64,000 nucleotides of DNA, taken from NCBI GenBank assembly GCA_964016885.1, contig OZ024745.1:105090001-105154000 (forward strand). The letters are read 5' to 3'. Under the pieces are notes generated by a model. It saw only the letters and a program-made list of their open reading frames with translations. It was not told the DNA's origin and did no database searches. The translations under genes and the position numbers were made by a program. Below are positions 1 through 11,953 of the stretch, in pieces. The number at the start of each line of letters is the position of its first letter. The stretch's first letter is position 1. Source of the stretch: Eledone cirrhosa (taxonomy: Eukaryota).

Positions 1-1910
1 TAAACATGTCATGTAACAGGATTATATGGTTGATACCATCAAAAGCTTTTCAACATGAAGTATCATTGAATATATAATTCCATTGCTAGTTATGTTTTTG
101 CTTTTATTGTTTACCATTATATTTTGTATAAGAAACCATTTTTTGTCATTGATGAAAATATACTTCACAGTTCCAATACACTATTTTGTATGGAGTGGGG
201 TCCTAATTTGGTAGGGTTTAATTATTAGTCTTTTCGTTTATTGTTCCATGAAATGAATATGAAGGGAGCCTCTTGGTAGTTGTTCGACCAGCTAGAAATA
301 ACAGCCAATTGTCCCTTAAATCAGAAGCTGCTTCTTCTTCTTATTATTATTATTATTTTTCAGGGTGGTATCAGTAGAGGGTTGGACGCCAAGCTTTGCA
401 GCATAAAGTTACGGTCCTTTACGGTCTGAGTTCAAATCCTGCCGATATTAACTTTGCCTTTCATCCTTATGTGGTCGACAAAATAAAGTACCAGTAATGT
501 ACTGGGGTAATTGCTGGCCTTGTGCCAATAGTAGAAACAATTATTTTTCTTCTTCTTTGCCCACATATTCCAGAGAGAGTCGTTGGGGCAGTCCTCAAAC
601 ATTCCTTTCAGCAAGACTTGTCAGAAGCAACCGTTTCCAACTGATCTGGCTGAATCCCCAAATGAGACCAGCTGAGCTCATGGATGTTAAGTCAAATAAG
701 CTAGCTTCTATGTTATTTCTCAACATGTTAGAAATAACAGCTAAATTCCACTCCATTAAATTAAAATCTAGTTTTGGATGCATACTGCGTGAATAAGAAA
801 ACAAAAAAAAAAAGGGATGGTCAATGCATTTGATCATTAGTCTGCTTATCAGGTCTGACCTTCAGCTAAAGATCAACAATACCTGGTTCTATGTTACAAA
901 GCCCTTTGTTTAAATGTGTTTATACTTAAATCTAAACCTTCCACCATAATTTTATCTAAGAACCCTTTAGATAATGAGAAATTTTGTTATATTACTAAAT
1001 TCCTCAAAATACTTGATAATTTTCAATAATTTAAAAATTAAACACAATCTTTCATTAGAAATATAGTAACAATCCATCATAATTTTATGTAAGAACCTAT
1101 CTTAAGCTATATTCCAAATAATAAGAAAGTTATATTACTAAATCCTTTCCAATTGTTAACATTTAATTATTTTAAGATCCTTGGCAGTGTTTTCATTTTG
1201 AAATATGGTAATAAAATGATTAAAGACTAGGCTGTTGTTGTTAATGTTTAGCCTCAAGTAAACATTCTGGCAGAAGGCAATCCAGCTGTGACCATCTCAT
1301 CTTGTTTTCAGGCATACTATATCTATAACTATCATATCCAATCTGTCCCATTTTTTAACCCTCTAGCATTTAAACCAGCTGTATCCAGCCAGGATTCTCT
1401 CACCCCTTTCTGTTCAAACAGGCTGTAACTGGCTGCTCTTGTTCATGTTAAGGTATTGTTCTCAAAATATATAATATCAAAATCTCATAGATTTTATATT
1501 ATGTGAGATAAAGCCTTTACTGTGAACATACAATAGTAAATATAGAGTAAAGAGTTCAAGATGGCAATGCACAACTCAATGGAGATTCAACTGCTATTTC
1601 TAGCCTTGATATATAGACGTCCCACAATGTGGGCATATATGGAAGCAGATGACTGAAATCTTGTAACTAACTGTAAAAATAACAACATCAAATTCAATAA
1701 CTTTCAGACAGCTTTATTACCACTGATTTGTTTCATTCCATATGGAGACAAACATTTTTTAAAATAAAAATAAAAAAGGCAAAAAAAAAAGTTAGTTTGT
1801 TTTGAATATTTTTTCTTTTTTTTTTTGCAGAAACAATCATACATCTCTGTTGTTACAACCACTTAATGTTTTTATCATATGTATATTTACATACATATAT
1901 AGACATGGAC

Positions 1911-1942
<32 letters not shown>

Positions 1943-3461
1943 TCACATACATATATACACATGCACATATATATATATACACACCTACATAGATAGATAC
2001 ACATGCACGTGTATATATATATATATATATATCTACATACATATATAATGTGTGTATGTGTATACATATGCATATATCTTGGATACAATACTGCTTATTA
2101 GAAAATACATTACATAGAGTAATGTGACAAGTTTCTGGGAGTATACATGGACAGTACAAAAGCTTACAATTGGGATAAAATTGCATTACATTACATATAT
2201 AACACCCAAACATGGCTTTAGTCAAAAGACTGAAACCTGTACACATATAAGAGTATATAAGGGCCACCAAAAAGAAAAAAAATCTCATTAAACATGTACA
2301 TATATGTAAATACATATTGAACTTTGATAACAAGGCAATAAACAGCCAAAAGATTGCAACCTTGCACAGTTAATACATACAATAAATTACAATAATGTAC
2401 GTGTAAAACAGAACAAGGGAAAAGAGACAGAGGGACATGTATAAAACAGACAGGAGGAAAGCTTATAACCAGGATAAGAACATTGAAGCTCTGAAACAGT
2501 TTCGAAGCTGATCAACTGAAAAGTTACAAATTGAAATATGCTGATAACTTGACAGTTTATTTTTTGTTTTTCCTTTCTTTCTTCATTTTACTTTTTTTAT
2601 AACTTGAAGATTGGGAGTGTTATTATATTTTTCTCAAATAACAACCGCTCATAACTGTGATATGATGTGAAAAATAGATTGCAATAAAGATGGCGTGTTT
2701 TTTCTATAATTTTTGTGTTTTTGTTTCAATAATTTTTTTATTTATATGGGGAATTGAATCTATATTTTCATTTTGAGGAAGTTATAAAAAGCTCATAGTG
2801 CATATTAAGTTTTAAGCTGCATGTATGTATGATGTGGTAATTTAGATGGCTTAGCTTCAGACATAATTGAAATCCAGCTACAATTTAAGCTTGAACCAGC
2901 TACATCTTTTTTCTGCTCATGCATTTTACATCAATACATCTTAATACTCAGATTATTTTCCTTGCCTTGGAAGGGAGACAGAAATCTCAGTAAATTAAGA
3001 CATATTGCCCTTTCAAAAGCCACAACCACAATAACTAGATGATTCTAACATTTCAGTTACTCAAAGGATTACGTTGCTAATGGTGATCCATCTTGTTCTT
3101 TAACCATAGAAAAGAATCAAAATAAAATCAGCCCAAATCTTTGAAATTCTTGTTTTGCCCCCTCTTAGTAAATACATGCTCACCCATATATGTACACACA
3201 CTTGTCCCTGGAATCACAACAAAATAAAACAGAAATAAATATAACACTATATAGGTGTGCTTTAAATGGTTATCATCATTTTTCCAAGATGCTATTTTTC
3301 TAGTCTCAACACATGATCTTATCTTGCATCAATTACAAAACATGTGCAACTCCGATATATATATATATATTATATACACACACACACTTGTTTATGCACT
3401 TTCGTTTGAAATTATACACCTATCATCAAAAATGTCTGATTTATGAGGTGTACAACTTTAA

Positions 3462-3649
3462 CCCTTTAGTATTTAAATCAGCTGTATCCGGCCAATATTC
3501 TCTCATCTCTTTCTGTTCAAACCAGTCATAACCAGCTACTCATACTTATGTTAAGGTATTTTTCTCAAAATAAATAATATCAAAATTTTGTAGATTTGAT
3601 ATCATGTGATAAAAATACAATAATATAGGGTAATGTAAATGCTAAAGGG
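3462..3649. mobile_element. piggyBac-type MITE (TTAA TSD, CCCTTTAG TIR)
   Basis: ttaa|ccctttag...ctaaaggg|ttaa. Related copies near 1359, 11541, 11633, 17818-17968, 22458-22686, 26862-27348, 27682-27909, 32570-32992, 43146-43345, 49245-49774. Confidence 0.88.
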
Positions 3650-3813
3650 TTAAATAAAAGTAATTCTGTAAAATCCTAAAAAGTAAATAAATTTAACCAC
3701 TCTCCATGCTCTTTATTGAGTTCTTTAATATATGACTAGTTGACTTACCCTTAGGATTAAAGTAACATATAATATATATATAAGGCTATTTTTATATCGC
3801 ATATGGGTAAAAA

Positions 3814-4085
3814 ATATAGGAAAAAGACATTGAAAATACAATTGGAGTTTTTAAGAAGATTTATTAATAATAACTTTACCAGTTTCATGTTTGGATGATT
3901 TTCAAAAGTTAACTGAGACGGAGAGATGTGTGGCTATGTGGTGATGTTTCTTGCTTAATTACATAGCCACATATTTCTCAATCTCACTTAACTTTTGAAA
4001 ATCATCCAAACGTGAAACTAGTAAAATTATTATTAGTAAATTTTCCTAAAAATTCCAATTGCATTTCAACTTCTTTTTCCTATAT
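3814..4085. repeat. Diverged inverted repeat (about 125-bp arms, 21-nt loop) with minimal HHR motif in each arm
   Basis: Arms 3814-3939 and 3961-4085. Minus-strand arm reads TAACTT-TTGAAAA-tcatccaaacat-GAAAC-TG-GTA-AAGTTA, then AATAAA; TA tracts nearby. Confidence 0.85.
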
Positions 4086-5391
4086 ATATGTATATATATA
4101 TATAATGTTGCTTAACCTCTGTCAGTTCCAATCACAAGTGTTCCAGTAGTTTGAACAATGAAACAGCCCACTCATAAAACTGAAGGAGGGAAAGTGGCCA
4201 AGCTTCACAGAAATATGTCCCGTTAATGAAACTTTTAGAAAGATTCAGCATGTCACAGTGTCTGACAAGGCTGGCTCTTTTTGCTGCCTGAGTGGACCAG
4301 AGCAACATGAAATACAATGCACTGCTATTATATATATATATATATATACACACACATATGCATTTATATATCACCATCGTTGTTTTTATGTCCACTTTTC
4401 CATTCTTGTATGAGTTGGACTGTATGTATGTATGTGTATATATATATATACATATATAATATATATATTTAACAAATAAATAAAAGCTAAGCTTTTCCAG
4501 ATGAAGTGATATTAGACATTATAGTCACAAATCTGAGATAAAAAAAACAAAACAATCCTATTAACAGGGGACCTAAATCATGAATTTATCACTTGATGGA
4601 CAAGTGGGCCTGTTTTACTTTCCTGTGACAAATTCATACTTATAATGTCTATCAAATAGAAAATTTGCATTGGTGTGAGGAGGTAAAAAGAAAATTTATA
4701 AAGAGTTTGTGATGATCATTGAGTAAAGTGGTTAAAGTCAAAGCAAAATGAAATGTTGACATTCAACACATTCCAAACAAAACATTAGACACTGAAGACA
4801 GACTCAATTGAAATAGAAGACAATTACATCATATATTATTGATAATAATAATCTTTTGAGGTTCATTCATGTCTGGATAGAATCAGGTGTATGTATGTAT
4901 ATATATATATATATACATACGTATATATATATACATATGTATATATATATATATATATACATACATATATATACACACATATATATGTACACATACACAC
5001 ATAGACAACAAAATAAATGTTAGTTGCTATTCATTTTCCAAATATATTCTACTTATGTATGAAGAACTTTTTAACAGATGTTTGTACATTAGTATAGAGA
5101 AGTTCTATAATACGATATTACACATTTATACAGAGATGACTTAACTATAGTAAAAAAGCAGTAAATAACATTATGACTGGTAAATAAAAAATACTCTCTG
5201 TGTACTAAATGTATTTTAGATGTTATAGAAATTAGTTATTTCACAGCTTCAGAAGAAAGGTTGAGTGAGTAGGAGGAAAAACATGTTTATGTGTACATCT
5301 CACAAAAAGTACATATGACAAATACAATGTGTGTGTGTGTATATATATATATATTGGAAAATGTGTGAGATCCTTGGTACAGTTAGGTATA

Positions 5392-5756
5392 TTTTAAAAA
5401 AAGGAAAAGAATGACTTCACTTGTAGTGTTAAAAAATTTAATATCATTTTATAATATTATAAGTTGGTAGATCTAATAAGTTCTTTGTTAACTTCGGTGG
5501 GAAGAATTTTAAAGATTCCTGGTTAACTTTGGTTGAAGAACTTTCTCGCATTCGTCTGTGGCGATTGTCAAACAGTTTGACAATCGCCACAGACGAATGC
5601 GAGAAAGTTCTGCAACCAAAGTTAACCAGGAATCTTTAAAATTCTTCCCACTGAAGTTAACAAAGAACTTACTAGATCTACCAACTTATAATATTATAAA
5701 ATTATATCAAATTTTTTAACACTACAAGTGAAGTCATTCTTTTCCTTTTTTTTAAA
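5392..5756. repeat. About 180-bp-arm palindrome (1-nt spacer) with variant HHR motif in each arm
   Basis: Axis at 5574; about 5 mismatches between arms; TTGACAA-TCGC..GCGA-GAAA-GTTCT...AGAAC-TT; right end runs into (TA)n. Confidence 0.9.
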
Positions 5757-6289
5757 TATATATATACATATATTATATATATATTGTATATATATTGTAT
5801 ATATATGAGTGTATGGGTGAGTAAATAGTGTGAGCATAGATAGATGCATATCATACAGACATAACACCATACAACACAAACACATACACACTCCATACAC
5901 AAACATTTTTTCAAAGATGAAGATTCACTGCACCAGTCCTGAATTTCTTAAGTGCAAATCCTTCAGGTGACCCACCACCATTTTTTAAAGGAACACATTA
6001 TCTTTACTTTATGTACTAAGTATTTTTTTTTATAACCATTTACAGATACAAATGTGTGTGTATAAACATGACTAACAATGCACAAAAGAGAAAGTATTGA
6101 ATTCCATGAAGTAGAGTATATATTTAAGTCGGTCAGCTAAAATCAACACTGGCAAGTACTGGCAGTTTCCTCACACAAAACACCATGTAATTCATCAGGC
6201 CATTATTCTGAAATCTATATTTGAAGATTTGTACTTGTCTTTTACATGAGGAAATTCCTTGTAATAACCAGTGTTACTTTCAGCCAAAG

Positions 6290-6336
<47 letters not shown>

Positions 6337-6658
6337 TATTATAGATATAAATGAAAAGTGTTATAAGGTATTGTAGAACTGTCCAACCCATGCCAGCAAA
6401 TGTTGATATCACCATTATCATTGTCACTATGCTGGCATTGTGTAGGATTGATCAGTAATAAGATATATCACCTTTTGTATCTACCATAAACAGCAGCACC
6501 ACCTTAATGACAACTTAATCAGTAAGTGTCGGCTACAATTTTAATCTTGGACCTTGTTGTCTGGCTCTAAATTATCAATAATATGAAAAGACACAGACAC
6601 ACACCACACAAGCATACAATGAATTACCAAACTGTATTTATCCAAATGCATGCAGAAG

Positions 6659-6690
<32 letters not shown>

Positions 6691-7733
6691 ACCCAGTATA
6701 AATGACTCTGGTATAGGTTTGACCAGCAGTTGTTTTGGGATCATCTGAGTGGTAGATAGGGGATCCTGTGAATATACTGAAATAGAAGCTGTGAACCAAA
6801 GCTAATCTGTATTAATATGCAATAACAGACTGATATAGTGAAGTGGAACCTAAACTCTTCAAATGATTCCTAAACTATAGACTTTATCAGTTACCCTTCC
6901 TATCTTGAACATTTACAAAACTTGGGAGATTAGACACCCAAAGTTAAAAGTTATAGAGTGATAAGGGTAGCATTGGTGGATTTGACTTGGTAGATAGGCT
7001 TGAAGCAGTAACTGTCTCACATACATACACACATGCAAATTCATAAACTTCAGTTCAGGAGGGCTTAAAAAGGCTTCAAACACAACCCATCAGATTTAAG
7101 GAATAAAAAAAAAATAAACAACAACCAACAACAACATACTTGTGATATCGAAATGCACAAAAAATCTGCACGAAGAGAAAGAATAATCTAGACAGACATA
7201 GAATTTAGTAGGGATTATATCAACACCTTTTTCTTTCTCTCAATCCTTAACTTATTTTCCCCTACTTTTCCTCTTTCTCAGTCATTTTATGAAATTTTCC
7301 CAAGACTGGGATGTTTTTGGTTTGCAAATTTAAATACTTGCATACATTAATTTTTGGCACAAATATTTTATTATTATAGTTGGTAGCTCTTTCTCTGACC
7401 AAACATTAATAGTTTAACATGAAGAGAGAGACCACAAAATAAAAACATAAGTAAAATAGTATATAATAAGGCTTGAACTATGGCAATACCTTAAAATCAG
7501 CAAGTGTGGTCATAATTTTCCATATTCTTGAGTCACTAAGTTTATATGATAGGAATTGAAAACATGTATAAAAATGCCTACATGTGCATGTGTGTTTTTA
7601 AGTGATGCATGAATGTGTATAAATGAGAAGTGCTACAAGTTCTCACCCATATAAACTTGAAGCAGGCATTATACAGTTCATGCTTTGAGTATTATAAAAA
7701 AGGAAATTTGTAGGCTCTGCGAGTCTACTATAT

Positions 7734-7783
<50 letters not shown>

Positions 7784-7891
7784 TATAGTCCTGACTCTGG
7801 AAGTAAAGTGGACCTTTACATCTACTCTGCCACTAAATATTACTCAAGTACAACTTTGTGGTATTTCCAGGCTTCATGTGTCAATACTTCA

Positions 7892-7942
<51 letters not shown>

Positions 7943-7946
<4 letters not shown>

Positions 7947-8136
7947 TTAATATAGATGAGATTCTACAGGACTAGAACTGTTTCATTCTTTAGAAATCAT
8001 CAGGGATTCCTGATGATTTCTAAAGAATGAAACAGTTCTAGTCCTGTAGAATCTCATCTATATTAAAACTTTTATACTCTGCAATGTATTGAGTACCTTA
8101 CTTACTGTGGTTACCTCCGATTCAACCCGGAATAAC

Positions 8137-8138
<2 letters not shown>
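7943..8138. mobile_element. Penelope-like pLTR with inverted 5' duplication (64-bp-arm palindrome 7943-8070) in (TA)n
   Basis: Near-perfect palindrome centred at 8006/8007, HHR core in both arms, ATTAAA downstream, flanked by (TA)n. Confidence 0.65.
8003..8055 (+). ncRNA. Type I hammerhead ribozyme within a palindrome
   Basis: Stem I GGGATTC/GAATCTC; CTGATGA 8010-16; stem II TTC-TAAA-GAA (U.U closing); GAAA 8029-32; stem III ACAG/CTGT; GUA triplet ending at 8048. Confidence 0.7.
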
Positions 8139-8176
<38 letters not shown>

Positions 8177-8389
8177 GAAACCTGTAGTAGCAACAGATTG
8201 AAGCCTCAGTTTTAAATGTATAAATAAACTCAATATATTAGATCTCTATTAGTTTCCTTCAAACTTTGCTTTTTGGTGAGGAATTTAAATATTGAGTAAT
8301 TTTCTTCTCTCATTAGTACACCCAAAAGCAAATACATATTTATATACATATAATACATGTATATAAATATGTATGTGTATATTTATATG

Positions 8390-8970
8390 TATAAATACAT
8401 ATTAGAAAGAAACACATGTATATCTATATATGTATAAATACATATTAGAAAGAAATATATGTATATCTATATATGTATAAATACATATTAGAAAGAAATA
8501 TATGTATATCTATATATATATAAATACATATTAGAAAGAAACACATGTATATCTATATATGTATAAATACATATTAGAAAGAAACACATGTATATCTATA
8601 TATGTATAAATACATATTAGAAAGAAACACATGTATATCTATATATGTATAAATACATATTAGAAAGAAACACATGTATATCTATATATGTATAAATACA
8701 TATTAGAAAAAAATATATGTATATCTATATATATATAAATACATATTAGAAAGAAACACATGTATATCTATATATGTATAAATACATATTAGAAAGAAAT
8801 ATATGTATATCTATATAAATACATATTAGAAAGAAACACATGTATATCTATATATGTATAAATACATATTAGAAAGAAATATATGTATATCTATATATGT
8901 ATAAATACATATTAGAAAGAAACACATGTATATCTATATATGTATAAATACATATTAGAAAGAAATATAT
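8390..8970. repeat. 43-bp AT-rich minisatellite, about 13 copies
   Basis: Unit aaatacatattagaaagaaacacatgtatatctatatatgtat with minor variants. Confidence 0.95.
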
Positions 8971-9118
8971 GAGTGAGTGTGAATATTGTTGTACAATGTA
9001 ATCTTAAGCTAAAATTTAATAAATTTTGAATGAGGTGGAGTAGGAAGGGAGAAAGAGAGGAAAATAAGAGAGGGATAAAGAGAGAAAGGAAGTCAAGCAA
9101 AAATGCACAGTAATAATG

Positions 9119-9162
<44 letters not shown>

Positions 9163-9701
9163 TGTTTCTACTTTAGGCACAAGGCCAGCAATTACCCAGT
9201 GCATTACTGGTACTTTATTTTATCGACCCCGTAAGGATGAAAGGCAAAGTCAACCTCGGTGGGATTAATAATAATGATAATAATAATGAAATTAAATGAA
9301 ATGCCTTTAAAATAGTTACAAGTGATCTAACATGAAGATATCGTTATGCAGTGGACGGCTTGAAACAATTAGTTCTTTATTGCTAGTTGACAAGAGGTGT
9401 TTCTTGTTTGTTTTCTTTTATTTTTTATTGAAAGAAAGTAAATAAAAAAAAAATTGTAAAAGGAACTTAAAAAGACAAGATTTTTCTGTAGAATGATATA
9501 TGACATATGAAGATGTTAGCAATGAGCAAAGCTCAGACAGTAGCAACCATATTCTTATACAGTTCTGTTGTTGAGCATTGTGATTATGGAGATATATCTG
9601 TCTGTAGCGATGTAACTACTGCAGATATATATTTAAAAAAAAAAAAAAATTAGAATGAAGTTGTTGTTGTTGTTGTGTTTTATTCTTTTAGCAAACTTGC
9701 T

Positions 9702-10163
9702 TCATGGCTTCATCTTCACCAGTGGGATATTTTTGGTCGATAGGCATTTGTCGCAGACCCATTCTGCATAGACCTCTGCCCTTAGCAGGTGATAAGCGTC
9801 CTCTGTCAAACCAGTGCAGATGCGATGGAACCAGAAGTTACAGCCGCTCTCACATAGAATGGCCTGGTCACTGTCGTGAACCTCTTTATGACAGGTGCCG
9901 CAAGGGTAGATGGGCGGGGCATTAGGGTTGGCAGGATTAAAGACCATCGACTTGTTTCGCGGGTAGACCTTCTCGGAGGGGCCTGATGGCGGCGGCCCAA
10001 CTGGTTGGGCATGTGCCATCATTTGTTTGTTCGGTATGTTCAGAGATGGTATTGGTTGGTCATCGAACGGATTCTGTGCAAAGATCGTGTTGGTCTTTGC
10101 ACAGCTACCCGGATTGGGCAGCACTGGTGGGGGTGGGATCAACTCGGGTATTGTGGGGCTCGG
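9702..10163 (-). CDS. pygo: Pygopus, terminal coding exon (NPF motif and C-terminal PHD finger)
   Basis: ORF encodes AQNPFDD (Pygo N-terminal homology NPF motif) and PIYPCGTCHKEVHDSDQAILCESGCNFWFHRICTGLTEDAYHLLRAEVYAEWVCDKC (Pygo-type PHD). Polypyrimidine acceptor ttttattttccag|CCG at 10164-10165; 462 nt, phase 0, TGA at 9702. Confidence 0.95.
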   Translation of the reverse strand, partial: PSPTIPELIPPPPVLPNPGSCAKTNTIFAQNPFDDQPIPSLNIPNKQMMAHAQPVGPPPSGPSEKVYPRNKSMVFNPANPNAPPIYPCGTCHKEVHDSDQAILCESGCNFWFHRICTGLTEDAYHLLRAEVYAEWVCDKCLSTKNIPLVKMKP

Positions 10164-11634
10164 CTGGAAAATAAAAGAAAAAAGAAAACATGACATCAAA
10201 AATACACATTCTCATAGACATGTACAAAGATTTGCATAATAAAACGTTAGAAACATGCACAATAGCTTATCTGCAGGAGAAAAACAAATAAAAAATACTT
10301 ATATATTACATAATATCATCATCATCATTTTACGTCCGCTTTTCCCTGCTTGCAAGGGTGGGACGGGAACTGATTCTGGCTTGATTTCTACAGCTGGATG
10401 CCCTTCCTAACACCAACCTCATTTACAGTGAGTGCCGGGTGCTTTTTTGCCGTGACACCTCCACGACCACTTTGCAGTGGAATGATAGAGACCCCAGTCC
10501 TATCATCTCATTTCTATAGCTGAGTAAATATATATATATGTAAATTACACCCTACCGTTATTACAAAAGAAAATGAAGAACACATTAGATAATGTAGTCT
10601 GTCATACACAAGGTTTGAATAAAATGCATGATAAACACAGCTGGAACAGATCAGCTAGATCAGGCCTAACCTGAAGAGGAACAACATTACTCAGCCAACA
10701 AGTGAGCTTCTATGCAGTCACTAAATCTATTGCAATCAGCAGTCTATGATGTCTTTAAACATGACACATGTAAAAAAAAAAAAAATTAGGCAGTTACAGA
10801 TGGAACACCTTTGATCATAGGTCTTCTCATTAGGGCTGGCCAGAGACTAAATTAATTATTCTGCTTTCAAGTACCATGGGTGATGGAACATGCCAGCTAA
10901 TGAAATCAACAAAATGCTAGTTTGAACTGTTGATTTGTATCTGATTAGCTTATTGTACACATGGCGTAGATACTTAGTGAACAAATGTGTAGTACATCTA
11001 TGGAACTTTGACATGCTAGATATAACAGTAAAATTCACTGAAATACACAATACCATCTACAAAAAGAAAGGATACATTAGACATAATAGTCTCTGACATA
11101 CAAAAAAATGACAAGATGGTCTTAAACAACAACTTAATTCTTAGATTTAGTCCTTTAGCCAGTAAATATAATCAATAGAATTATTGACTATGCTTACATA
11201 TAAATTCTAAAATATTTATACTAGCAGGAAAAAACAAATAGTGAATATTTTAAATCATTTTATATAAAGATAAAATAACACCTGTAATATAATTATTGGT
11301 AATCAGAAACAGATCAATCAACAAGTCTCCTATAAATTAGTGGTCATGTGTGCCACTGTAAAAAGCACTGAAGGTTCTTGGCCAATGTTAGGTTGTGAAT
11401 TTAGGTGAGTGTTATCATTGTTAGTTTTAGCTTAGACTTGATCATAACCTGCTTTTTATATAAAATGTAATTACCCCTAGATGTGTGTACATTGCCTTAG
11501 TTGACCAGCTTTATTTGTAGGCTTGCTTCATTTGGATTAACCTTTTAGCATTTACATTACTCTATATATACTATTGTATTTTTGTGGTAGAGGCTTTATC
11601 TTACATAATTATCTCACATAATATATCTTTAACC

Positions 11635-11953
11635 CTTTAGCATTTAAACTGGCCATATTTGGCCAGAATTCTCTCACCTCTTTCTGTTCAAACCGACCAT
11701 TCATACTGATGTTAAGGTATTGTTCACAAAATAAATAACATCAAAATCTCATAGATTCTATATTCATCATCATCATCATCATTTTACGGGAAGAGCGGAC
11801 ATAAAATGATGATGATGATGATGAATATAGAATCTATGAGATTTTGATGTTATTTATTTTGTGAACAATACATTAACATCAGTATGAGTGGCCGGTTTGA
11901 ACAGAAAGAGGTGAGAGAATTCTGGCCAAATATGGCCAGTTTAAATGCTAAAG
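11635..11953. repeat. Fold-back palindrome of a MITE half plus (CAT)n RTE-type tail
   Basis: About 150-bp arms, few mismatches; 14-nt spacer resembling the RTE/SINE 3' end (gggaagagcggac). Confidence 0.9.

What the first reader, a model, noticed from the sequence alone, without database searches (positions are those of the whole stretch)
3814..8138. Cluster of three ribozyme-bearing fold-back palindromes downstream of the pygopus stop codon
Seen: three palindromes unrelated in sequence (3814-4085, 5392-5756, 7943-8070), each next to (TA)n and each with an HHR motif mirrored on both strands. In two of them the symmetry axis (5574; 8006/7) falls in the 5' strand of HHR stem I. Known: Penelope-like elements often leave an inverted 5' pLTR, and some clades target microsatellites. 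Inference: a recurring insertion product giving bidirectional ribozyme hairpins. If they lie in a long pygopus 3' UTR (1.8-9.7 kb is notably poor in LINEs/SINEs), the long hairpin would mask the ribozyme, and ADAR editing or helicases could unmask cleavage, a possible editing-gated mRNA stability switch.
Basis: partly seen in the sequence, partly recalled or inferred. Interest (0 to 1): 0.85.

Follow-up and report, generated by a model that had tools for sequence, protein, structure and literature searches.

The report
Penelope retroelement stubs forming ribozyme palindromes
The three palindromes beside the pygopus gene are short remnants of three Penelope-like retrotransposon families, one of which has left over 4,000 such palindromes in this genome, likely made when reverse transcription runs off the predicted start of the element's RNA and two copies are joined head to head, and they are unlikely to be an mRNA switch.

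Summary
The palindromes are real, but they are ordinary products of Penelope-like elements (PLEs), not a pygopus-specific device. Each is (TA)n + short inverted pseudo-LTR arm + long arm with a unique tail + (TA)n, from three families whose longer copies encode PLE reverse transcriptase/GIY-YIG proteins (P3: Hydra-type; P1, P2: Neptune-like). The P3 family has 4,179 exact-pattern head-to-head hammerhead palindromes genome-wide (control 0). P3's hammerhead fits type I with a compensatory stem I pair; P1 and P2 carry the known U3-A8 core variant; P2's fold is incomplete. New detail: the symmetry axis sits 30 nt downstream of the element's TATA box, at the predicted transcription start (4,179 there, 83 near the cut site, 20 upstream of TATA), so the template was likely uncleaved RNA copied to its 5' end. 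The editing-gated switch is not supported: on the pygopus-sense strand all three ribozymes are damaged, the P3 hairpin is 86 kcal/mol more stable than the ribozyme fold, editing would hit catalytic adenosines, and five AATAAA signals lie within 500 nt of the stop. UTR extent could not be tested.

The parts
7944..8137 (.). P3: minimal Hydra-type PLE insertion, two pLTR stubs head to head between TA tracts
   Evidence: 40 of 40 scored hits to the left arm are 100% identical; parent ORF in L146/L215
8004..8054 (+). P3 type I hammerhead, antisense to pygopus; stem I 6 of 6 pairs, predicted cut after 8048
7959..8009 (-). P3 hammerhead copy on the pygopus-sense strand; stem I has 2 mismatches of 6; predicted cut after 7965
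8004..8009 (.). P3 junction, at the predicted transcription start of the pLTR (30 nt after the TATA box, which is absent from this stub)
   Evidence: transcription start is predicted, not measured
8070..8137 (+). P3 tail, present on one arm only
5355..5756 (.). P2: minimal Neptune-like PLE insertion; long arm with tail on the left (sense on minus strand), short arm on the right; axis 5574
   Evidence: parent ORF remnant with CX4CxxC linker in L129
5577..5583 (+). P2 hammerhead-like core UUGACAA (mirror copy 5571-5565 on minus); stem II and GAAA follow; stem I cut to 2 bp by the junction, stem III unclear
3783..4082 (.). P1: older Neptune-like PLE insertion; long arm with tail on the left, short arm on the right
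   Evidence: GIY-YIG and CX4CxxC remnants upstream of promoter-bearing copies L072, L089
3995..4029 (+). P1 hammerhead, core UUGAAAA (U3-A8 variant), GAAAC..GUA; mirror copy starts at 3905 on minus with stem II broken
9702..10164 (-). pygopus last coding exon (PHD finger), stop at 9702-9704
9214..9684 (-). five AATAAA hexamers within 500 nt of the stop (9684, 9429, 9422, 9381, 9219); candidate poly(A) signals, untested

Best explanation
The three palindromes are independent, promoterless insertions of three Penelope-like element families into TA microsatellites, each made of two pseudo-LTR stubs joined head to head, likely formed when reverse transcription runs off the predicted 5' end of an uncleaved pLTR transcript. 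Shown: family membership, parent ORFs, the short arm/long arm/tail layout, heterogeneous junctions, and the sharp position of the axis 30 nt after the TATA box in the P3 and P2 families. Inferred: the element's protein nicks both strands of a (TA)n target and primes one cDNA at the outer start site (arm with tail) and one at the inner site (arm without); both run to +1; their 3' ends are joined by micro-homology or snap-back fill-in. A single cDNA folding back at +1 is the close alternative for the last step. Because stem I begins at +1, the axis lands in the 5' strand of stem I and both ribozyme cores are kept. With respect to pygopus the stubs are most likely passengers; if read through they would form long hairpins, likely ADAR substrates, in which the ribozyme cannot fold.
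For: Family and layout. Parents: P3 pLTR is joined to an RT + GIY-YIG ORF with DKT, RWR, CxCX5C, CxxC/CxH and no CCHH, matching the Hydra clade description (PMC8557442 section 11) except RWR for RWK; P1 and P2 parents show CX4CxxC. Census: 4,179 palindromes with the axis within about 15 nt upstream of the core, control 0; 83 with the axis at the cut site or stem III, control 0; 20 upstream of the TATA box, control 44. Of 50 fetched P3-family palindromes (the first 50 listed on C1), 43 have the tail on exactly one arm, 7 none detected, 0 on both; in 20 of the 24 of subfamily A the longer arm ends within 1 nt of +1; TATA-to-+1 spacing is 30 in 15 of 20 promoter-bearing copies. P2: spacing 30 in 12 of 16 measurable copies; longer arm ends within 11 nt of the core in 25 of 27 fetched palindromes (of 29), 13 of 27 at 8-11 with +1 at 9. 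Larger inverted pairs have arms of unequal extent (7 of 7 fetched), which simple fold-back cannot give; 10 of 24 small junctions are not simple fold-backs. The Anolis PLE protein nicks and extends both target strands, starts at two sites that bound the tail, and uses uncleaved RNA (PMC11167929).
Against: The transcription start is predicted from TATA spacing only; in D. virilis Penelope the promoter is internal and TATA-less and a computer-predicted promoter was dispensable (PMC2377424 passages). 14 of 24 small junctions, and the window's P3, fit a simple fold-back with 0-2 untemplated bases. Both arms carry the same loop II variant in 39 of 50 (8.25 expected), which fits fold-back as well as double copying of one RNA or RNAs from one locus. 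In P3 and P2 the predicted start and the end of stem I coincide, so they cannot be told apart; P1 junctions lie 25-55 nt upstream of the core, beyond stem I and up to the predicted start, but this was judged by eye on old, palindrome-biased copies. The three pattern anchors differ in conservation across subfamilies, so 4,179:83:20 is not an exact ratio. One arm in L211 runs 6 nt upstream of +1.
Confidence: 0.72

Rival explanations
1. Same PLE origin, but the axis is set by structure, not by the RNA end: one cDNA stops once it has copied the 5' strand of stem I (its DNA copy can pair with the copy of the 3' strand), folds back and copies itself.
For: 14 of 24 junctions fit a simple fold-back; arms share variants in 39 of 50; some junctions use the stem I complementarity directly (L250, L181, L182).
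Against: 10 of 24 junctions do not fit; larger inverted pairs are asymmetric; in L250 the short arm's end is extended into tail sequence that only the other arm carries; P1 axes lie well upstream of stem I; about 20 of 45 single cores read straight through stem I into the promoter, so stem I is no general block.
Confidence: 0.17
2. Head-to-head palindromes arise by self-priming on an antisense template from a bidirectional pLTR promoter, as proposed for Adineta Penelopes.
For: Proposed from palindromes at inverted junctions in PMC3846280 (passages); TATA boxes read in both directions.
Against: It does not predict a junction at sense TATA+30, nor loss of the TATA box from thousands of copies; both-strand extension from a sense RNA has since been shown in vitro.
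Confidence: 0.06
3. The cluster lies in a long pygopus 3' UTR and acts as an editing- or helicase-gated ribozyme switch.
For: Repeat cover is lower at 1.8-9.7 kb (17% against 37%); octopus RNA is heavily hyper-edited at long hairpins (PMC5625713 passages; organism identity is my unverified reading).
Against: Minus-strand ribozymes are damaged in all three; hairpin favoured by 86 kcal/mol, at least 32 after 50% editing modelled as loss of pairing; five core As are themselves editing targets; AATAAA signals close to the stop; P3 is a very young, identical-copy insertion, so not a conserved element; thousands of the same objects lie elsewhere.
Confidence: 0.02
4. They are MITEs or fold-back DNA transposons, or assembly fold-back artefacts.
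For: Palindromic shape; some copies look like terminal inverted repeats around kilobases of sequence.
Against: Ends are asymmetric (tail on one arm), junctions differ between copies, and the enclosed sequence is PLE RT/GIY-YIG; arms of P1 and P2 differ from each other; flanks are unique.
Confidence: 0.01

Closest known systems
EN+ Penelope-like elements with an inverted 5'-truncated pLTR and one-sided tail (Craig et al. 2021, PMC8557442; Arkhipova et al. 2013, PMC3846280)
   Same: Inverted head-to-head pLTR copy, tail at one end, (TA)n targets, hammerhead in the pLTR, TATA and Inr-like motifs in the pLTR, short palindromes at the junction.
   Different: Here the commonest product has no ORF, 3' UTR or promoter: only the part from predicted +1 onward, thousands of times, with the axis at a fixed place. 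I found no statement of that in the papers searched.
Hydra clade of C-terminal EN+ PLEs (PMC8557442 section 11)
   Same: P3 parent has DKT, CxCX5C linker, CxxC and CxH, no CCHH, a hammerhead and (TA)n insertion.
   Different: RWR instead of RWK; long microsatellite-rich 3' UTR; no phylogenetic placement was run.
Minimal type I hammerheads of metazoan PLEs, including the U3-A8 variant of Schistosoma Cercyon (Cervera and De la Pena 2014, PMC4209133)
   Same: Type I topology, palindromic loop III in P1 and P3, U3-A8 core in P1 and P2; that paper also notes pairs of motifs 100-700 bp apart on opposite strands.
   Different: P1 and P3 have U opposite U at the base of stem II in place of the conserved G10.1-C11.1; stem II is short; P3 has a 4-bp stem III.
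PAc (Poseidon of Anolis) in vitro mechanism (Frangieh et al. 2024, PMC11167929)
   Same: AT-rich nicking, extension of both strands, two internal start sites bounding the tail, uncleaved RNA as substrate: together these predict the layout seen here.
   Different: Different clade; that work did not address where cDNA ends or how the inverted junction forms.
L1 twin priming (recalled, no call)
   Same: Two primers from the two target strands give an inversion joined by micro-homology.
   Different: In L1 the two cDNAs cover different parts of the RNA; here they cover the same part and end at the same point.

Membership tests
EN+ Penelope-like element | Single ORF with RT and C-terminal GIY-YIG endonuclease linked to the pLTR | tested here: met
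   P3 parent ORF runs RT (YRDD) to GIY-YIG in L215/L146 and is joined to the pLTR; Pfam GIY-YIG only E=0.015, below cut-off; P1 and P2 parents are broken remnants
EN+ Penelope-like element | Direct or inverted pLTRs with an optional tail at one end | tested here: met
   43 of 50 P3 palindromes have the tail on exactly one arm, 0 on both; all three window copies likewise
Hydra clade | CxCX5C linker, CxxC and CxH around E and N, no CCHH, DKT | tested here: met
   CNCLNKEAC, CDLC, CMH, SDKT in L146/L215 against PMC8557442 section 11
Hydra clade | RWK motif | tested here: inconclusive
   RWR at the matching place
Hydra clade | Placement in an RT phylogeny | not tested
   no reference set fetched
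Neptune clade (P1, P2 parents) | CX2-5CxxC linker upstream of the GIY-YIG domain | tested here: met
   KCGHPNCGTC in L089; KCGDTRCGTC in L129; this motif is shared with Nematis and Naiad, so it does not fix the clade; domain order (linker after RT-thumb-like sequence) argues against Naiad
Type I hammerhead ribozyme | Core C3-G8 (or U3-A8), GAAA, NUH cut site | tested here: met
   P3 and P1; P2 has core and GAAA but no clear cut triplet
Type I hammerhead ribozyme | Stems I-III with covariation | tested here: met
   P3 family: stem I pair 4 is A-U in 26 and C-G in 12 of 45 arms that keep the inner stem, no A-G or C-U; 95% of cells paired on 31 pre-selected rows of 77. This reflects few events between subfamilies. 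P1: stems seen, covariation not tested. P2: stem III and I not resolved
Type I hammerhead ribozyme | G10.1-C11.1 pair at the base of stem II | tested here: not met
   U opposite U in 76 of 77 P3-family copies and in P1; so these are hammerhead variants, and activity is open
Type I hammerhead ribozyme | Self-cleavage at the predicted site | not testable with these tools
   needs in vitro or cyclic-phosphate sequencing data
MITE or fold-back DNA transposon | Symmetric terminal inverted repeats with fixed ends and a transposase partner | tested here: not met
   asymmetric ends, variable junctions, RT partner
Non-LTR retrozyme | Head-to-tail tandem units each with a hammerhead | tested here: not met
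   window copies are head-to-head pairs; true tandem arrays of a 310-bp unit exist elsewhere (L213, L214)

The most novel reading that the evidence does not exclude
Thousands of these palindromes are a genomic record of how Penelope-like elements integrate: a capped, uncleaved transcript that begins exactly at hammerhead stem I is copied twice from the two strands of a TA target, both cDNAs run off at +1 and are end-joined. This would explain the long-unexplained head-to-head inverted pLTR, would mean the ribozyme is placed to remove the cap rather than to make the template end, and would make PLE stubs a major self-contained source of the double-stranded RNA behind cephalopod hyper-editing.
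Probability: 0.4. Interest if true: 0.65.

Novelty: new variant of a known kind. Interest (0 to 1): 0.4.

Why it matters
How PLEs form their inverted repeats is named as an open problem (PMC8557442 passages), and the earlier proposal was self-priming on antisense RNA (PMC3846280). A fixed axis at TATA+30 in thousands of copies gives a direct, cheap test: map the RNA 5' end, then move it in vitro. It also gives a candidate source of long perfect hairpins in a genome type reported to have unusually many (PMC5625713). For pygopus itself the finding is probably of no consequence.

Tried and rejected
No RNA holder listed for 2200-10140: 20 possible RNA runs hold 0.05-0.06 of words and 4 runs of one study hold 0.53-0.80; none of this was laid on the sequence, so it is no evidence on expression, UTR length, editing or assembly. 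No read-based result was obtained. A search with the P3 tail alone returned nothing, a limit of the search, since the tail is present in many loci. Rfam miRNA hits are hairpin-shape matches below gathering scores. The CUGAAG at 5651 in P2 is not the family core (most copies have CCGAAG). Discarded computations: searches (stem register off by one; redone; its P1/P2 motif print-out is used; palindrome finder failed its positive control; redone), the fold-back table (search order wrong; redone). Arm-to-arm identity in P2 was uninformative because many arms are truncated. A cap-templated extra C fits the window's P3 junction and L013 but only 1 of 24 census junctions (L212), so I do not claim it. 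The 10 kb left of the window showed LINE remnants and no recognisable host gene in an ORF listing; not pursued. Homologue search confirms pygopus but does not identify the organism. Earlier scan notes: none. Literature searches that found no statement of an axis at the transcription start; most subscription papers are outside this library, and supplements of PMC8557442 (element lists, HHR files) were not read and may list these families.
Full report
Observation. The three inverted repeats are present as described: arms 3834-3939/3961-4066, 5388-5573/5575-5760 and 7943-8004/8009-8070, each beside a TA tract. The minus strand carries the last coding exon of pygopus, stop at 9702-9704. The window lies on contig C5 of a 3.0-Gb genome; I read it as octopus-like from recalled genome features, which no call confirms.

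All three are repeat-family copies. The P3 arm gave 737 candidates, with all 40 scored 100% identical; P2 gave 2,450 and P1 1,158. Flanks show that each element is longer than its palindrome: (TA)n, a short inverted arm, a long arm ending in a unique tail, (TA)n. Copies that keep upstream sequence show a TATA box followed by the hammerhead, and further upstream a PLE ORF. For P3 the ORF runs from RT to GIY-YIG with DKT, RWR, CxCX5C, CxxC, CxH and no CCHH, as described for the Hydra clade, which inserts into (TA)n (PMC8557442, section 11 read). P1 and P2 parents are broken but show a CX4CxxC linker, Neptune-like. An inverted 5'-truncated copy and a one-sided tail are the standard PLE arrangement (PMC8557442 passages; PMC3846280 passages).

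The ribozymes. P3 is a type I hammerhead: stem I AGAUUC/GAAUCU, core CUGAUGA, short stem II, GAAA, 4-bp stem III, GUA. Among 148 cores examined, 77 were distinct and in register; of the 45 that keep the inner stem I, pair 4 is A-U in 26 and C-G in 12, never A-G or C-U; on 31 rows pre-selected for an intact 5' strand, 95% of cells pair. This is a few subfamily-level events, not independent changes. P1 has the U3-A8 core variant, known from Schistosoma PLEs (PMC4209133, parts 1-2 of 4 read). P2 has a U3-A8 core, stem II and GAAA but no clear stem III. P1 and P3 lack the conserved G10.1-C11.1 pair (U opposite U in 76 of 77). Rfam gives no hit at gathering score and weak hammerhead hits below it. 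Activity is untested.

Census. Exact-pattern scans found 4,179 P3-family palindromes with the axis just upstream of the core (control 0), out of 38,578 core 12-mers (control 131; this total includes a retrozyme family); 83 with the axis around the cut site (control 0); 20 with it upstream of the TATA box (control 44); 29 for P2 and 9 for P1, both older and so under-counted by exact patterns. The anchors differ in conservation, so the ratios are approximate. I fetched the first 50 listed P3 palindromes (all on C1). Junctions are heterogeneous, so they formed repeatedly. The tail is on exactly one arm in 43 of 50, undetected in 7, on both in 0. In 20 of the 24 of subfamily A the longer arm ends within 1 nt of the first base of stem I, which lies 30 nt after the first T of the TATA box in 15 of 20 promoter-bearing copies. 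Of 45 other cores in 40 loci, 20 keep the promoter, 14 have an inverted partner (loose motif rule), 6 stop at stem I without one, 4 are retrozyme units and 1 is chance. In P2 the spacing is again 30 in 12 of 16 measurable copies, and the longer arm ends within 11 nt of the core in 25 of 27 fetched palindromes. P1 axes lie 25-55 nt upstream of the core, beyond stem I and up to TATA+30, judged by eye.

Mechanism. If the template had been cut by the ribozyme, the axis would lie at the cut site and the core would be missing; it is not. The simplest reading is that cDNA runs off the 5' end of a transcript started by the pLTR promoter (inferred; the start is predicted, and D. virilis Penelope uses an internal TATA-less promoter, PMC2377424 passages). 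The Anolis PLE protein nicks AT-rich DNA, extends both strands, starts at two sites that bound the tail and uses uncleaved RNA (PMC11167929, parts 1-2 of 4 read), which predicts a long and a short arm pointing away from each other. For the final join, two cDNAs are favoured by the unequal arms of 7 of 7 larger inverted pairs, by L250 and by 10 of 24 junctions that are not simple fold-backs; fold-back of one cDNA fits the other 14 and the window's P3, and shared variants in both arms (39 of 50 against 8.25) fit either. I put PLE origin near certain, the axis at the transcription start at about 0.7, and two-cDNA joining a little ahead of fold-back.

The switch idea. No read evidence on UTR length or editing was obtained. 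Five AATAAA hexamers lie within 500 nt of the stop. On the minus strand, which would be mRNA, P3's stem I has 2 mismatches of 6, P2's stem I is cut to 2 bp and P1's stem II has lost its C-G pair; the intact P3 ribozyme is antisense to pygopus. The P3 hairpin is 75 (plus) and 86 (minus) kcal/mol more stable than the ribozyme fold; with half the paired As modelled as non-pairing and the core spared the gap is still at least 21 and 32, and the chance of sparing five core As at that level is 0.03 (I modelled inosine as G or as non-pairing, a rough bracket). Single metazoan PLE hammerheads did not cleave alone, and the Anolis one needs its protein. Plain hyper-editing of such hairpins is plausible where they are transcribed: lizard Penelope is heavily edited and octopus has unusually many long hairpin loci (PMC5625713 passages).

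The cluster. In 217 kb of fetched flanks there were 21 short-spacer palindromes, 2 with a strict hammerhead motif (flanks are biased to TA-rich places). At the strict rate three in 4.3 kb has P about 1e-5, about 7 such stretches per genome; at the all-palindrome rate P is about 0.009 (hand calculation). The stretch has 2.5 TA tracts per kb against 0.6 in the rest of the window, so target density is a sufficient explanation, and selection for a cluster is not shown.

Novelty. The architecture, the ribozyme class and TA targeting are in print; opposite-strand hammerhead pairs were noted in 2014. The promoterless minimal palindrome at thousands of copies with its axis at TATA+30 was not found in my searches, which miss most subscription papers and all supplements. 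Also seen: bioRxiv 10.64898/2026.07.22.740005 (part 1 of 5) and PMC7229834 (passages) on retrozymes; PMC11703226 (passages; irrelevant). Verdict: a variant of a known PLE product, of modest interest for PLE mechanism, and probably irrelevant to pygopus.

Noticed in passing
L213 (G000:C1:5388200-5393200) and L214 (G000:C1:15433300-15439000): Arrays of a 310-bp unit, each with a type I hammerhead that shares the U-U stem II base and has a palindromic stem III: non-LTR retrozymes. Both arrays invert in the middle (6+8 and 6+10 units pointing outward) and sit in TA tracts, suggesting the same two-strand priming on a circular or multimeric RNA.
   Followed up: partly
L002, L012, L027, L030, L045, L158 flanks: Another abundant 90-120 bp palindrome family beside TA tracts, with a GAAAC motif but no upstream core in the arms; possibly a further PLE family whose axis falls inside the ribozyme.
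   Followed up: no
window 11635-11953, with partial copies at 1354-1550 and 3453-3653: A 152-bp-arm palindrome starting TTAACCCTTT, resembling a TTAA-targeting MITE (label recalled); it lies in the pygopus intron.
   Followed up: no
window 8336-8971: 43-bp AT-rich minisatellite, 15 copies, between the pygopus stop and P3.
   Followed up: no
window 9161-9287 and 343-562: Inverted pair of a high-copy SINE-like repeat (label recalled) 8.7 kb apart; the right copy is about 420 nt after the pygopus stop.
   Followed up: no
window 1816-1870 (+): A strong splice-acceptor-like tract followed by a short open frame and downstream AATAAA; might be the last exon of a convergent plus-strand gene, which would make part of this region its 3' UTR (by eye).
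   Followed up: no
L146, L147, L215, L149: Hydra-type PLE copies with long open frames (about 600-650 aa), 93-98% identical to each other: a young, probably recently active family with a microsatellite-filled 3' UTR.
   Followed up: partly
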